This document shows, one piece after another, positions 31,683 to 60,655 of a DNA stretch of 64,000 nt. The first letter of the stretch is position 1. Every line of letters starts with the position of its first letter. The translations under genes were made by a program, and so were the position numbers. Source of the stretch: Octopus vulgaris (taxonomy: Eukaryota). The stretch is from assembly GCA_951406725.2 (NCBI GenBank), contig OX597836.1, positions 14,508,001 to 14,572,000 on the forward strand. Reading direction: 5' to 3'. Under the pieces are notes generated by a model. The model saw only the letters and a program-made list of their open reading frames with translations, was not told the origin of the DNA and ran no database searches.

Positions 31683-32071
31683 GTTGAAAGTTATAGAAAA
31701 ACAAAAGACGAAGGCAGGTGTATAAACAAGCAAGTGTATTAGTCTGACGCTCGGGAAAAATGAAAAAAACAACTTATATATATAATTATAATGGGGGTTC
31801 AGCTAATTATAGAATATTTTATAAATATATTTACGTTTTCGTTTCTCGTTGAGTTCTACGTCTATTTGTGGTGTCCTGCACACACGTATATATATTTATA
31901 TATGCATGTATATATACATGTAGATGTAGGTACGTACATATATGTTTGTATGTATGCATATATTTTATTTATTACACTATTGTATGACTGAGCGCCTTCG
32001 CGTCGATTCGATTCGATTCGTTTGGTCTCGTTTCGTTTCTTCTTCTCTAAGCTGGTTCTTATATATATATA

Positions 32072-40175: not shown

Positions 40176-40661
40176 ATACAAAATTTAAAGGACTGACCAC
40201 TAAAAGTGGACGGTCAACATGCTAGGTATAGACGTCAAATCGCTATTTTCCACAAAGAATATGTTCTCAAATAAAAACCCAGCACGAACCAAAGCATTAA
40301 AAATAAGCAAGACAAATGAAAATATACGAAATAAAAATGATTACCTATGTACCGATCAGTTTCGATTGTTATTATCCACGCATGTGGATACCCGCAATCT
40401 GCAAATTGTATTTCTATATGACAGACTATGCTGATGAGATTGCGGGTATCCACATGCGTGGATAATAACAATCGAAACTGATCAGTACATAGGTAATCAT
40501 TTTTATTTCGTATATTTTCATTTGTCTTGCTTATTTTTAAAGCTTTGGTTCGTGCTGGATTTTTATTTGAGAACATATTCTTTGTGGAAAATAGCGATTT
40601 GACGTCTATACCTAGCATGTTGACCGTCCACTTTTAGTGGCCAGTCCTTTAAATTTTGTAT
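40176..40661. repeat. Long inverted repeat, 225-bp arms (40176-40400 / 40437-40661), 36-nt spacer; Penelope-type fold-back
   Basis: Arms are reverse complements with about 4 mismatches; this explains the twin ORFs 40219+ and 40618- that share an N-terminus. Confidence 0.95.
40426..40492 (+). ncRNA. Type I hammerhead ribozyme with minimal palindromic stem III
   Basis: CTATG-CTGATGA-GATTG[...]CAATC-GAAA-CTGATCAG-TA-CATAG: intact core, stems I and II pair, GUA cleavage triplet. Confidence 0.88.
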
Positions 40662-49091: not shown

Positions 49092-49207
49092 GGCGGTGCC
49101 CCAGCATGGCCTTGTTTTATTTATATTTCCTGAGCGCCATACTAATACAATTGTTTGTTTGTTTTCCACCTGCCTTCGTCTTTTGTCTATTTTCATAAAG
49201 CTTCCCG

Positions 49208-49240
<33 letters not shown>

Positions 49241-49341
49241 GGAGTAAACACATGAATGTGAAACAAGGTGGAAAAAGAGTACTCAAATACCATTGGTAGA
49301 GTAATATGCTTTATTTAAAGCAGCAGAAAATTCAACAAAAC

Positions 49342-49379
49342 CTGTTACTCTGAGTTTCCCGTTGCCGTTCATCGGACAG
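49342..49379 (-). ncRNA. Minimal hammerhead ribozyme variant (CCGAUGA core) in a Penelope-like end fragment (~49239-49400)
   Basis: Minus strand: CTGT-CCGATGA-ACG GCAA CGG-GAAA-CTCAGAG-TA-ACAG. Confidence 0.65.
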
Positions 49380-49543
49380 TTTTTGCTAGCAAAAATTAAA
49401 TTTAGTAGGAGGTGTTTTCAGTAAACACCGCACAGCCATCGATGCCGATGGAGAAAGAGGTGCCCTGTCTAATTATTACATGATGGCATCGATGTAGATG
49501 TATGTTATAGAAATGAAAACGCCATCGACGTACACGAACGCAG

Positions 49544-49578
49544 TATAAAAAGGGGTAATTTACAACTGACACGCATTC
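49544..49578 (+). promoter_or_regulatory. TATA box and initiator-like motif upstream of the viral-type PLA2 ORF
   Basis: TATAAAA at 49544, GCATTC ~30 nt downstream, ATG at 49585. Confidence 0.5.
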
Positions 49579-49584
49579 GGCTGG

Positions 49585-49737
49585 ATGCCACCGATAAGGA
49601 AACACCTCCGGCGCAAAACCAAAGACGGCGAGTTCTACCAACCAGGCTACGAATTCCTTGGACCTGGTACAAACATATGCAAACGCAGATACGACACACC
49701 ACTAAACGCTATAGACACAGCAGTGGAGGCGCAATAG
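49585..49737 (+). pseudogene. Truncated parvovirus VP1u / adintovirus-Polinton type phospholipase A2 (endogenous viral element)
   Basis: Hand translation: MPPIRKHLRRKTKDGEFYQPGYEFLGPGTNICKRRYDTPLNAIDTA|VEAQ*. PGY.FLGPG is the Ca-binding loop; P.N..D.A leads to the catalytic HD, which is lost where the SINE begins at 49723. At 50 aa it is shorter than any ORF in the track. Confidence 0.8.
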
Positions 49738-50108
49738 CCCAGTGGTTAGGGCAGCGGACTCGCGGTCATAGGATCGCGGTTTCGATTCCCAGACCGGGCG
49801 TTGTGAGTGTTTATTGAGCGAAAACACCTAAAGCTCCACGAGGCTCCGGCAGGGTGTGGTGGCGACCCCTGTAGTACTCTTTCGCCTCAACTTTCTCTCA
49901 CTCCACTCTTACTTCCTGTTTCTGTTGTACCTGTATTTCAAAGGGTCGGCCTTGTCACTCTCTGTGTCACGCTGAATATCCCCGAGAACTACGTTAAGGG
50001 TGCACGTGTCTGTGGAGTGCTCAGCCACTTACACGTTAATTTCACAAGCAGGCTTTTCCGTTGATTCGGATCAACCGGAACCCTCATCGTCGTAACCGAC
50101 GGAGTGCT
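49723..50108 (+). mobile_element. SINE family C, full length
   Basis: tRNA-like head plus the tail shared with the 7606 copy. Confidence 0.85.
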
Positions 50109-50136
50109 TCCATCCATTCTTTTCTATTCTAAACCA

Positions 50137-50263
50137 TCGCTCGTTTTCACCAAAACAAGCGCTGGCAAACAAATCACTGCCCTAACCCCTTATAGGCGCC
50201 TTATAGGGGGGGGGTTAGGGCAGTGATTTGTTTGCCAGCGCTTGTTTTGGTGAAAACGAGCGA
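50137..50263. repeat. Perfect hairpin, 53-bp arms (50137-50189 / 50211-50263), structured 21-nt loop
   Basis: Arms are exact reverse complements; the apex has CCTTATAGG twice around GGCGCC. Confidence 0.95.
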
Positions 50264-50879
50264 GTAACAGGTTTTGTTGAATTTTCTGCTGCTTTAAATA
50301 AAGCATATATATATATATATAGTATATAAAGTATATATATATATATATATATATATATACTTAAGTGTACATATATAATTTTACGTATATATGTATATAT
50401 ACATATATATGCATATATATATGTACATGAAGTTGTGTGTACGTGTGTTTGTGCGTGTGTGTGTATGTATGTCTGTGTGTACATGGTTGTTTGTGTGTAT
50501 GTTTGTGTGTGCGTGTATGTATATGTGTATGTGTGTGTGTGAAGTACCACTCATTTGTCATTTCTTTGTCTTAGTCATTAACCAAAGATTAATTAACCTT
50601 TTTCCCTTTACTTCAGACGAAATGCTTCAATGACATCTGGCTTATGTTTATGTCATTAAATGCCTCTCTCTAATAAGCTAACCGTTAATTACAATGATTC
50701 CTAACAAAAACATAAAAGCCACAAATTTTTGGGTGATGGTCATAGTTGTGTAGATTCGATTATAGTCGATATCAACAATCGACAAGAACTTAATATTTTA
50801 TCGATCCTGGAAGTTACAAAAGGCTAAAATTGACCACAGTTAAATTTGAACTCAGAACGTAACGGGATGCAAGTGTTTC

Positions 50880-51390: not shown

Positions 51391-51469
51391 TATAGATAGA
51401 TAGATACATACATACATACACACATACATATATACACACACATACATACATACATATTTGGGATAGAGA

Positions 51470-51779
51470 AGAGAAACTGTATACAGCTGTGGACATTTGG
51501 TGCCCGACTGATGTTAACCTGAAGCTGAAGATAGGTGAAAAAGTGAATACCTATGCAGAGCTACTTAGAAATCTGCAGTTACTCGATCCAGACTACAAGT
51601 TCAGGTTTATACCTGTAATTACTGGGGCCCTGGGATATGTAGGACACTGCCTAAATACAAATCTTGAGAAATTAGGCTTCTCAAAGCCAGAAAGAAGAAA
51701 TCTAATTCGAAGACTACGGATCCAATCCATCACTGTAACTGTAAAAATCTGTAAAACTTTCCAGAAGTTTATCATTTAA
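51470..51779 (+). pseudogene. 3' end of an R4/Dong-type LINE ORF (restriction-like endonuclease C-terminus)
   Basis: DIWCPTDVNLKLKIGEKVNTYAELLRNLQLL..YKFRFIPVITGALG resembles the RLE C-terminus (D..P.D.N...K..EK...Y..L ... PV..GALG). Confidence 0.75.
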
Positions 51780-55720: not shown

Positions 55721-55941
55721 TATGTCCGAAGTCAGGACGCCATGATAGATCGTTAGCTCCTACACGCATTTTTTTCTCTCCTTGTTTCTCTCCTTGTTTT
55801 TTTCTGTGTATACTTCTGTCGAAGACCGTAGGCTCGAAATGTAAAAGACTTTTTCTATTTCTATTCCTGAGCACTATACTAATACATTTGTTTGTTTGTA
55901 CTCCACCTTTCATCTTTTGTTTATTTTCGTAAACCTTCCCG

Positions 55942-55991
<50 letters not shown>

Positions 55992-58999: not shown

Positions 59000-59433
59000 G
59001 GATCTTTTCGGTTTGAACGGCAGTTTTTTCTAGCGGTGTCATATGAAACTGTCACCCATAATTATTACCCTAGTATCGATCTATTGCATTTCAATCTGTT
59101 TTAGGGTTAGGGTTAGTTAGGGTTAGGGTTAGGGGTATGGGGAAGGTTATCTTTTTTTCTTCAGAAATGTAAATAAACCCAATCTGTTTCTTAAACGAGG
59201 GACATATTCATACGACACAGAATGTTTTCACCTCAATAGACGTCTTTGATCGGTTGAAATTGCAGAAATGAAAGAAAAAGAACAACAAATATCTTACAAA
59301 CTATAGAATTTTCTCAATAAAGCCAAGAGAAAAAGATGTTTTATAAACACATTCTACCAGTATACGAAGTTTAAAAGTGTTTAGTTACGTGGAAATTATT
59401 TTTAAAAAACTGCCGTTCAAACCGAAAAGATCC
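59000..59433. mobile_element. Intact 434-bp MITE: 30-bp TIRs, 8-bp TSD, internal TTAGGG repeats
   Basis: TIR GGATCTTTTCGGTTTGAACGGCAGTTTTTT is perfect at both ends; TTGACAGA duplicated at 58992-58999 and 59434-59441. Confidence 0.93.
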
Positions 59434-59549
59434 TTGACAGATACATACATCGACAAAAATAAAAGTAGAATATGATATAAATAAAAGAAATAAATGCGAC
59501 CTTTTAAAGCTTAACTAGGCTCCTGGGCCCGGTTTCCCGGTTTCAATGG

Positions 59550-60655
59550 CGTATATGCTTGGGGAGGCATGAGTTAAATAATTGGTATTGTTTAGAATCT
59601 GCGGGTTTATAAAAGATGTCTGTTTCGATGTGGTTGTTAACTATTTTAATTAGGATGTCAAGAAAAGGGAGTTGTTTACTGTTGTGTTCCATGGTGAATT
59701 GTATGTTGTTATTAATGTTGTTAAGCATTATTTTGAAATCGAGGAGTTTGTCCATGCTGTCTTTCCAAAGTATGAAGCAATCATCTAAATACCTCTTCCA
59801 GTTCTCCTTTAAATAGCAATGAAATGAGGCGCCATATTTTTCTAGTGATGATTGGTATAACTTAAGTTCTAGGTAACCCATCGGAACAGAGACCTGGGAG
59901 ACACTTGCTGCCAACCGCTCATCCTGGCGCAGCGCAATCACCGTGGGAGCAGGGACAGCCGAGGAGGGACGGATTCGGTCAGCGGAGCAGAAACGTCAGA
60001 TGCGTAAAGCCAGAGCCGCCTGCACCAGTAGCACGGCCCCTACCCACTTCTGCCCCACCTGTGGGGGGGGGCTTCCTTGCCCGGATTGGCCTCACCAGCC
60101 ACCTCCGGTCTCATGGCGCCAGTTCCATCAGATGATGTCAGTTGGTCATCTTCGAACCGAAGGACGAACATTCACAAGGTAACCCATTACAAGGTTTGCA
60201 ATCACTGGGTCTGCTTGAGTTTCCATTGCAATTCCACATGTTTGTCGATAGTAAACTGTATCGAACATGAAATAGTTGTTCAGCAGGATGAATTTGAGTG
60301 CTGCGATTTTGAATCTGTGGTTAATGCATCCTGGGATCTCTTCTGGGTATTTTTCTAGCCAGAAAGTGATTGCTTCTATACCATAGTTGTGTGGGATATC
60401 GGTGTACAAATCCACTACATCGAATGATACTAACAGGGTTCCTTTCTTTACTGTCTTCGGGAGGTGATACAACATGTCTAGGTCATCCCTGATAAAGTTT
60501 TTCCCATATTTTAAAAACGGTTTAAGTAAGATGTCGAGGAAGTTGCTCAAACGGTGGGTTTCACAAGAAGGGCCAGCTATGATGGGTCTCAGTTTGAGGT
60601 CAGTAGGGGAGGGACATTAATGCATAGGCTTGGAGAAACTTTGCAGGCTTTTACA
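59550..60655 (-). pseudogene. Penelope-like element reverse transcriptase fragment, split by an insertion
   Basis: RPIIAG...LVSFDVVDLYTDIP...YRQTCGIAM...IANLVMGYL | MGYLE...WKRYLDDCF...IQFTME...LPFLDI...DIFYKP: PLE RT motifs. Confidence 0.9.
59882..60176 (+). mobile_element. 5'-truncated RTE-clade LINE with 11-bp TSD
   Basis: WETLAANRSSWR...FCPTCG..FLARIGLTSHLRSH (RTE C-terminal zinc finger, frameshifted at a G run); AGGTAACCCAT duplicated at 59871-59881 and 60177-60187. Confidence 0.9.

What the first reader, a model, noticed from the sequence alone, without database searches (positions are those of the whole stretch)
49544..49737. Endogenous parvovirus/adintovirus-type phospholipase A2 fragment missed by the ORF track
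Seen: MPPIRKHLRRKTKDGEFYQPGYEFLGPGTNICKRRYDTPLNAIDTA with a basic NLS-like N-terminus, TATAAAA 41 nt before the ATG, and ATCGA motifs upstream (49438, 49487, 49524). Established: the PGYxYLGPG...D..A..HD signature defines the parvoviral VP1u PLA2 (Pfam Parvo_coat_N) and PLA2X of Polinton/adintoviruses. The SINE cuts the frame just before the HD dyad. Inference: trace of a DNA virus that reached the germline; few are described in cephalopods.
Basis: partly seen in the sequence, partly recalled or inferred. Interest (0 to 1): 0.75.

Follow-up and report, generated by a model that had tools for sequence, protein, structure and literature searches.

The report
Parvovirus capsid fossil inside retrotransposon
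A short, broken piece of the capsid gene of an unnamed parvovirus-like virus, with its promoter and probably a viral end-hairpin, sits in this animal genome between the inverted ends of a jumping gene, a fossil of a virus group that has left traces in octopus and cuttlefish.

Summary
Real. 49585-49722 encodes 46 residues whose only Pfam match is PF08398 (E 0.0016, below the cut-off). Relatives decide the identity: an Octopus vulgaris protein (85% identical) and unnamed 606-621-aa proteins on contigs of up to 4.5 kb carry the PLA2 at the front of a long capsid-type protein, whose look-alikes are parvoviral VP1s (the fold model is poor). So it is a parvovirus-type VP1 start, not adintovirus PLA2X. 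The SINE (49723-50115) does more than interrupt: no further VP sequence exists in the window. Best reading: a young, non-functional endogenous parvoviral fragment captured in a Penelope-like insertion. Parvovirus-related sequences in cephalopods were already listed in 2016 (PMC5013282 supplement), so this is a new member of a known kind; the virus lineage has no named virus among its hits. NS1 linkage, copy number and the hairpin's origin are untested.

The parts
49209..49238 (.). (TA)n tract, left boundary and likely target of the insertion
   Evidence: sequence; (TA)n described as a preferred PLE target in PMC8557442
49240..49390 (-). Penelope-type terminal repeat (pLTR-like), 3' end abutting the (TA)n; inner boundary approximate
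   Evidence: holds the hammerhead-like motif and the source of the inverted arm; no PLE consensus was available to fix the boundary; family assignment is inference
49342..49379 (-). Minimal type-I hammerhead-like motif (stem I 4 bp, short stem II with one mismatch, palindromic stem III, one core change); predicted cut between 49346 and 49345
   Evidence: only hit of a hand-made descriptor in the 64-kb window, 0.13 hits per shuffled window over 100 shuffles; descriptor was revised after seeing the site; Rfam gave no hammerhead family
49393..49543 (+). Unique 151-nt stretch upstream of the promoter with three CATCGA words; probably viral (NS end or promoter region), not shown
   Evidence: single copy in window; no Pfam hit in the frames tested; CpG o/e 1.4; word repeat marginal
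49544..49577 (+). TATA box with an initiator-like CATT 31 nt downstream: candidate VP promoter
   Evidence: 2 of 31 TATAAAA words in the window have such a word at +27 to +35; initiator consensus is recalled
49585..49722 (+). First 46 codons of a parvovirus-type VP1: basic N-terminus, PLA2 calcium-binding loop, start of the catalytic helix
49723..50115 (+). SINE that ends the frame (stop at 49735-49737); no target-site duplication
   Evidence: 82-87% identical to four partial copies elsewhere in the window; 5' edge by alignment; only a 6-nt shared word away from the edges
50137..50263 (.). 127-nt hairpin, 53-bp perfect stem, 21-nt middle with two tandem mini-palindromes: candidate parvoviral telomere
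   Evidence: (-79.8 kcal/mol for 50116-50310, z -18.4, 0 of 200 shuffles); single copy in window
50262..50308 (+). 47-nt inverted, truncated copy of the left terminal repeat (49304-49350), 100% identical; overlaps the hairpin by 2 nt; followed by TA-rich repeat

Best explanation
An endogenous fragment of a parvovirus-type ssDNA virus: the VP promoter and first 46 codons of VP1, plus probably one terminal hairpin, lodged between the two inverted ends of a Penelope-like retrotransposon insertion in a (TA)n tract. In the virus, this N-terminus is the phospholipase A2 used for endosomal escape (established for parvoviruses; PMC11357303, 10.1101/224584). Here it is dead: a SINE ends the frame before the catalytic pair and the rest of VP is gone. 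Shown: the coding identity, the break, the hairpin, the inverted arms. Inferred: (1) the family is Parvoviridae rather than another PLA2-bearing ssDNA group (about 0.85-0.9); (2) the hairpin is the viral telomere, in the place expected downstream of VP in a monosense genome with an internal deletion (about 0.6); (3) viral DNA entered during the Penelope insertion itself, the reverse transcriptase or repair synthesis jumping from element to viral template and back to an inverted element end through 2-nt microhomology (about 0.45), the SINE arriving separately with loss of target DNA; (4) the insertion is young or its arms have been homogenised.
For: 85% identity over 46 of 46 residues to O. vulgaris P0001, which continues into a region 73 of 140 identical to P0002. 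P0002 and P0008-P0011 are 606-621 aa, PF08398 at the N-terminus, on contigs of 2080-4470 nt. ESM Atlas: the top three clusters for P0002 are VP1-type (PF08398 plus PF00740, Cossaviricota; 0.93-0.94). Profile vs PDB: 18 hits, all named VP1 or capsid, best E 1.6e-6, with a second weak stretch in the capsid part. Foldseek vs BFVD: all 11 hits at E up to 0.001 are parvovirus or densovirus VPs, 10 of them aligned over 634-802 columns. Tree of N-termini: window peptide with P0001, P0003, P0004, 100/100. 6 of 7 differences to P0001 fall in residues 1-19 and 1 in the 27-residue PLA2 core (Fisher p 0.015), as expected if the two diverged as viruses. Hairpin geometry resembles the 113-nt Y hairpin of AdMADV (45-nt stem, two side arms over 23 nt; PMC3820778). 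Flanks fit the PLE pattern of an inverted 5'-truncated copy, hammerhead in the pLTR and (TA)n target (PMC8557442, PMC4209133). 0 mismatches in 100 paired positions of the two inverted repeats (95% upper bound 3%).
Against: No NS1 or other viral gene was seen in the window and none could be linked to the relatives. The capsid-type part alone matches no Pfam family and no PDB sequence. The fold model is poor (mean pLDDT 33.9, pTM 0.21), TM-scores of the BFVD hits are 0.09-0.17, and the PDB fold search gave nothing at E up to 0.001. Atlas hits for P0001 residues 118-268 were led by unnamed RNA-virus clusters, parvoviral capsids only at 0.88-0.89. Other long perfect hairpins occur in this window (40354-40483, centre of a 490-nt palindromic element; 9232-9304). 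The two-arm fold is less stable than the computed minimum (-68.2 vs -73.9 kcal/mol) and the tandem 9-mer in the loop is marginal (215 of 5000 shuffles). The clustering of differences is not significant if the cut is put at residue 17 (p 0.40). Rfam does not call the hammerhead.
Confidence: 0.75

Rival explanations
1. Same viral fragment, but integrated by ordinary break repair into a pre-existing Penelope inverted-repeat insertion (palindromic junctions are fragile); the retrotransposon is the landing site, not the carrier.
For: Inverted PLE ends arise without any virus (PMC8557442); parvoviral DNA is known to enter germlines and to lie beside transposable elements (PMC5013282). The SINE runs sense to the viral gene, so it cannot have been copied from SINE RNA in the same first strand as the left element end (inference from orientation), showing at least two events.
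Against: Arms are 100% identical over 47 nt and the hairpin joins the right arm through a 2-nt overlap close to the hammerhead cut site, which suits a single synthesis event but does not exclude repair.
Confidence: 0.35
2. The hairpin is not viral: it is a host palindrome (MITE core or fold-back product of the Penelope insertion), and only 49393-49722 comes from the virus.
For: Two other perfect hairpins of 31- and 47-bp stems lie in the window; the SINE separates the hairpin from the coding piece; no sequence match for it was found.
Against: Unlike the 490-nt palindrome at 40176-40661 its stem stops at 53 bp with unrelated flanks; it is richer in G+C (0.51 vs 0.40 and 0.26), single-copy in the window, and matches a densovirus telomere in size and layout.
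Confidence: 0.35
3. Polinton/adintovirus PLA2X gene fragment.
For: PLA2X is similar to the parvoviral PLA2 domain (PMC8502044); two relatives are short (P0003 129 aa, P0004 122 aa).
Against: The nearest relative P0001 and five others run on into a long capsid-type region; P0004 follows the VP1 alignment past the PLA2 domain (45 of 95 identical to P0002); no long ORF in the window was recognised as polinton-like (read by eye).
Confidence: 0.04
4. Capsid gene of a CRESS-type or other hybrid ssDNA virus that carries a PLA2 domain.
For: An Atlas cluster dominated by Cressdnaviricota with PF08398 scores 0.90; BFVD rank 14 is a Cressdnaviricota capsid, E 2.8e-3.
Against: Parvoviral VP1 clusters and structures rank higher in both searches; 4.4-4.5-kb contigs and a 127-nt hairpin fit a parvovirus (4-6 kb; PMC11357303).
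Confidence: 0.08
5. Chance match or host secretory PLA2 exon.
For: Pfam score is under the gathering cut-off.
Against: E 1.4e-17 to P0001; E 2.5e-9 with an independent profile against E 2.1 in the reversed control; no host PLA2 family among Pfam or PDB hits.
Confidence: 0.01

Closest known systems
Parvoviridae VP1 unique region PLA2 (Pfam PF08398) and endogenous parvoviral elements (PMC9707805; 10.1101/224584)
   Same: Calcium-loop motif near the N-terminus of a long capsid-type protein; truncated, TE-disrupted germline copy; partial terminal palindromes beside an endogenous copy have been reported before (pit viper element).
   Different: PLA2 starts only about 14-20 residues after the first Met; three more residues between the loop and the helix than in PDB chain 9me0; the capsid part matches no Pfam capsid family; no named virus among 10 hits at E up to 0.01.
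Cephalopod parvovirus-related sequences of Francois et al. 2016 (PMC5013282 supplement)
   Same: Genomic NS-like sequences in Octopus bimaculoides, a 565-nt VP-like transcript JR446908 in O. vulgaris (best hit AAV, 33%), NS-like ESTs in Sepia and Euprymna; mollusc sequences branch outside known genera.
   Different: Those are table rows found by BLAST; promoter, hairpin and insertion anatomy are not described in the parts read. Whether JR446908 or the NS pieces belong to this lineage was not tested.
Acheta domesticus mini ambidensovirus telomere (PMC3820778)
   Same: 113-nt Y hairpin, 45-nt stem, two side arms over 23 nt, G+C rich; its VP is rank 2 in the BFVD fold search (E 8.8e-8).
   Different: No sequence comparison was possible; there the VP TATA lies inside the terminal repeat, here the hairpin lies downstream of VP; our middle section is asymmetric.
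Penelope-like element insertions (PMC8557442, PMC4209133, PMC11167929)
   Same: Hammerhead-like motif in the terminal repeat, inverted truncated copy at the far end, microsatellite target.
   Different: The space between the arms holds viral DNA and a SINE instead of the element's RT/endonuclease 3' end; the two ends differ by 64 nt, longer than the 30-40-bp tail described.
Adintovirus PLA2X (PMC8502044)
   Same: PLA2 motif.
   Different: PLA2X ends in a pX-like domain; the relatives here continue for about 500 residues.

Membership tests
Parvoviridae-derived endogenous element | VP1u PLA2 calcium-binding loop at the N-terminus of VP1 | tested here: met
   PF08398 only hit; motif in 9 of 13 relatives, the other 4 lack the region
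Parvoviridae-derived endogenous element | Catalytic HD pair | tested here: not met
   Absent from this copy because the SINE ends the frame three codons earlier; present in 8 of 13 relatives, not in P0001
Parvoviridae-derived endogenous element | PLA2 fused to a single jelly-roll capsid protein | tested here: inconclusive
   Tested on relatives only: Atlas and BFVD point to parvoviral VP1; strand pattern compatible but pLDDT 33.9; capsid-only profile no PDB hit; PDB fold search blank
Parvoviridae-derived endogenous element | Linked NS1 with SF3 helicase | not testable with these tools
Parvoviridae-derived endogenous element | Palindromic hairpin telomere | tested here: inconclusive
   127-nt hairpin of fitting geometry, but no sequence link to a viral end and other palindromes in the window
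Parvoviridae-derived endogenous element | Genome of about 4-6 kb | tested here: inconclusive
   Longest contigs for relatives 4470 and 4409 nt; contigs may be partial
Parvoviridae-derived endogenous element | Embedded in host chromosome with decay | tested here: met
   Flanked by microsatellites and host repeats, SINE inside; read-level support not checked
Adintovirus/Polinton PLA2X | PLA2 followed by a pX-like C-terminal domain, separate from the capsid genes | tested here: not met
   Nearest full relatives continue into a 500-aa capsid-type region; definition from PMC8502044
Adintovirus/Polinton PLA2X | Linked pPolB, integrase, ATPase, double jelly-roll capsid | tested here: inconclusive
   None recognised among 143 frames of 110 aa or more in the window (read by eye; 7 selected frames scanned); context of relatives unavailable
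Penelope-like element insertion | Hammerhead motif in the terminal repeat | tested here: inconclusive
   Descriptor hit, unique in window; one core change and one stem II mismatch; no Rfam call
Penelope-like element insertion | Inverted 5'-truncated copy flanking the unit; microsatellite target | tested here: met
   47-nt inverted arm, 100% identical, (TA)n on both sides
Penelope-like element insertion | Repeat maps to the end of an RT plus GIY-YIG ORF | not testable with these tools
   No repeat library or whole genome on hand; an RT-like remnant at 59543-60616 shows no link to this repeat

The most novel reading that the evidence does not exclude
A Penelope-like retrotransposon captured parvoviral DNA, telomere included, by template jumping during its own insertion: a route of virus endogenisation that the paper searches did not find described, for an unnamed parvovirus lineage that has repeatedly entered cephalopod germlines. 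Because the element's strand runs antisense to VP and the hairpin would give 53 bp of double-stranded RNA, the cassette could also feed antiviral small RNAs.
Probability: 0.3. Interest if true: 0.75.

Novelty: new member of a known kind. Interest (0 to 1): 0.48.

Why it matters
It pins an otherwise host-less group of parvovirus-like capsid sequences (9 unnamed hits at 51-100% identity to P0002) to cephalopods through germline copies (O. vulgaris P0001, cuttlefish Acanthosepion pharaonis P0016, this locus). If the hairpin is the telomere, the locus preserves a cis-element that short-read viral contigs usually lose (recalled). If the capture was made by the Penelope element, it gives a testable mechanism for how non-integrating ssDNA viruses reach invertebrate germlines. 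The peptide itself is almost certainly non-functional.

Tried and rejected
Search for the rest of VP after the SINE or elsewhere in the window: tblastn with 13 relatives and two profiles found only 49585-49734. Target-site duplication around the SINE: none. Pfam on 6 other frames at or near the locus: no hit. NCBIfam on 6 proteins: no hit. Rfam: no family at gathering score among the listed rows; the MIR5380 match to the hairpin (70 of 150 bits) is a generic stem match; no hammerhead family. First hammerhead descriptor missed the site through lazy matching and gave 2 unrelated hits with about 1 per shuffle; it was rewritten. Hairpin and viral stretch against plasmids and phages: no match, so no sign of vector origin. 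ARAGORN: no tRNA call in the SINE. P0005-P0007 from the representatives search (3 of 6 hits) are repeat-rich unrelated proteins and were dropped. Capsid-only profile against PDB: 0 hits. PDB fold search: 0 hits at E up to 0.001. CATCGA as a special motif: not enriched window-wide (18 seen, 26 expected), locally marginal. A tree with named densovirus, Parvovirinae and PLA2X references could not be built because no such sequences could be fetched; the tree holds only the 10 N-termini found here. Cluster membership and accession numbers of P0001 could not be looked up. Viral and metagenome contig collections stayed unchecked.

Full report
Observation. The frame starts at ATG 49585, runs 46 codons to 49722 and is closed by four SINE-derived codons and a stop at 49735-49737. 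TATAAAA lies at 49544 and an initiator-like CATT 31 nt further on (the initiator consensus is recalled); 2 of 31 TATAAAA words in the window have such a partner. PF08398 is the only Pfam hit (E 0.0016, 19.1 bits, cut-off 23.9, profile positions 4-29 of 80). A profile made from 9 unnamed relatives finds the frame at E 2.5e-9 among 1898 six-frame pieces; the next piece scores E 1.0 and the reversed window E 2.1 at best. The CATCGA triplet is marginal (189 of 5000 shuffles). The source organism is not given; an octopus is inferred from the closest relative and from recalled repeat families.

What the protein is. The search among longer proteins gave one hit, P0001, an Octopus vulgaris hypothetical protein of 268 aa on an 84-Mb contig, 85% identical over all 46 residues. 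P0001 found P0002 (608 aa, contig 4470 nt, E 1.9e-58), and P0002 found 10 proteins at E up to 0.01 among 4587 candidates: itself, 8 more unnamed ones and a cuttlefish (Acanthosepion pharaonis) protein; none is a named virus. The representatives search gave 6 hits, of which P0001, P0003 and P0004 are relatives and 3 are spurious. The alignment shows a PLA2 domain at the very N-terminus, a spacer, and a region of about 490 residues that is 52-77% identical among the longer members and 73 of 140 identical between P0001 and P0002. 8 of 13 relatives keep the HD pair; P0001 does not; 4 lack the region. PLA2X of adintoviruses ends in a pX-like domain (PMC8502044, passages), so this architecture argues against it. 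For a parvoviral VP1: Atlas top clusters, 18 PDB VP1 or capsid chains by profile, driven by the PLA2 part, and 11 of 11 BFVD hits at E up to 0.001. Against over-reading: the model has mean pLDDT 33.9, TM-scores are under 0.2, the PDB fold search and the capsid-only profile found nothing, Pfam knows no capsid family for any of 14 members, and the Atlas search with the P0001 capsid piece was led by RNA-virus clusters. NS1 was not seen. In a tree of 10 N-termini the window peptide groups with P0001, P0003 and P0004 (100/100); no named reference is in that tree. Six of seven differences to P0001 fall in residues 1-19 (p 0.015; p 0.40 with the cut at 17), which suggests two integrations of related viruses rather than decay of one locus (inference).

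The break. The SINE begins at 49723, three codons before the position of the catalytic pair. There is no target-site duplication and no further VP sequence anywhere in the window. The gene is therefore truncated and largely deleted; the product, if made, would lack the active site.

Twenty-one bases after the SINE lies a 127-nt hairpin (50137-50263) with a perfect 53-bp stem (z -18.4). Its middle holds two tandem mini-palindromes. The telomere of Acheta domesticus mini ambidensovirus is a 113-nt hairpin with a 45-nt stem and two side arms over 23 nt (PMC3820778, whole text), and all parvoviruses are described as ending in such hairpins, with VP on the right (PMC11357303, passages and section 5; PMC9707805, passages). 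The two-arm fold is 5.7 kcal/mol above the computed minimum, the tandem is marginal, and the window holds two other perfect hairpins, one the centre of a 490-nt palindromic element. I put the telomere reading at about 0.6. The whole piece is framed by an inverted repeat, 49304-49350 and 50262-50308, identical over 47 nt, with (TA)n outside both ends. The left copy carries a minimal hammerhead-like motif on the minus strand, the only descriptor hit in the window (0.13 per shuffled window; descriptor revised after seeing the site), not called by Rfam. Hammerheads in terminal repeats, opposite-strand pairs, inverted truncated flanking copies and (TA)n targets are described for Penelope-like elements (PMC4209133, parts 1-2 of 4; PMC8557442, passages; PMC11167929, passages). 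The right arm overlaps the hairpin by 2 nt and starts 3-5 nt before the predicted cut site. Neither the hairpin nor the viral stretch matches plasmids; the hairpin matches no phage.

How it most likely arose. Shown: order and orientation of the parts. Inferred: synthesis primed in the (TA)n copied the element's end, moved onto minus-strand viral DNA (the strand many parvoviruses package), and finished on an inverted element end; a SINE inserted separately and the middle of the viral DNA was lost. The rival, repair-driven integration into an existing inverted junction, is nearly as likely. No mismatch in 100 paired positions suggests youth or homogenisation.

Prior art. Francois et al. 2016 (PMC5013282; passages, sections 5 and 6, supplement rows) list genomic NS-like sequences in O. 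bimaculoides, a VP-like transcript in O. vulgaris and NS-like ESTs in Sepia and Euprymna, and note that mollusc sequences fall outside known genera. Endogenous parvoviral elements with an intact calcium loop, lost catalytic core and partial hairpins are known in vertebrates (10.1101/224584, passages). Searches for Penelope + endogenous viral element + capture + parvovir and for parvovir + mollusc + endogenous + Octopus bimaculoides returned 0 papers; searches returned nothing on this lineage by their listings; 10.64898/2026.07.22.740005 held no relevant passage. The library lacks most subscription papers, and bioRxiv supplements were not visible, so absence from print is not established.

Verdict. 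A real endogenous parvovirus-type VP1 fragment, new member of a known kind, from an apparently unnamed cephalopod-linked lineage, made more interesting by a probable telomere and Penelope-type framing. Interest 0.48.

Noticed in passing
window 2621-3616 (-): Long coding exon with a DMA (DMRTA) motif, Pfam PF03474 E 1.4e-16: part of a DMRTA-type transcription factor gene.
   Followed up: partly
window 59543-60616 (-): Broken reverse-transcriptase remnant with motifs recalled as Penelope-type; no Pfam or NCBIfam hit; interrupted by an unrelated stretch near 59870-60145.
   Followed up: partly
window 40176-40661: 490-nt palindromic element, 94.7% self-complementary, between TA-rich tracts; MITE-like.
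   Followed up: partly
window 9232-9304: A+T-rich perfect hairpin (31-bp stem) next to a repeat fragment.
   Followed up: no
window 59000-59435: Another element with inverted ends, holding a few TTAGGG-like units.
   Followed up: no
window 49111-49207; also 12537-12640, 31344-31445, 31649-31772, 55849-55972: A second (TA)n-abutting repeat family, 78-88% identical among copies, directly left of the cassette; resembles a Penelope-type terminal repeat by recall only.
   Followed up: partly
window 51396-51779 (+): 127-aa frame resembling the C-terminal restriction-like endonuclease of a non-LTR retrotransposon (recalled); no Pfam hit.
   Followed up: partly
P0001 and P0016: Annotated host 'hypothetical' proteins of O. 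vulgaris and A. pharaonis are themselves decayed capsid genes of this virus group; P0001 lacks the catalytic His and stops at 268 aa, P0016 is a mosaic with microsatellite-derived text.
   Followed up: partly
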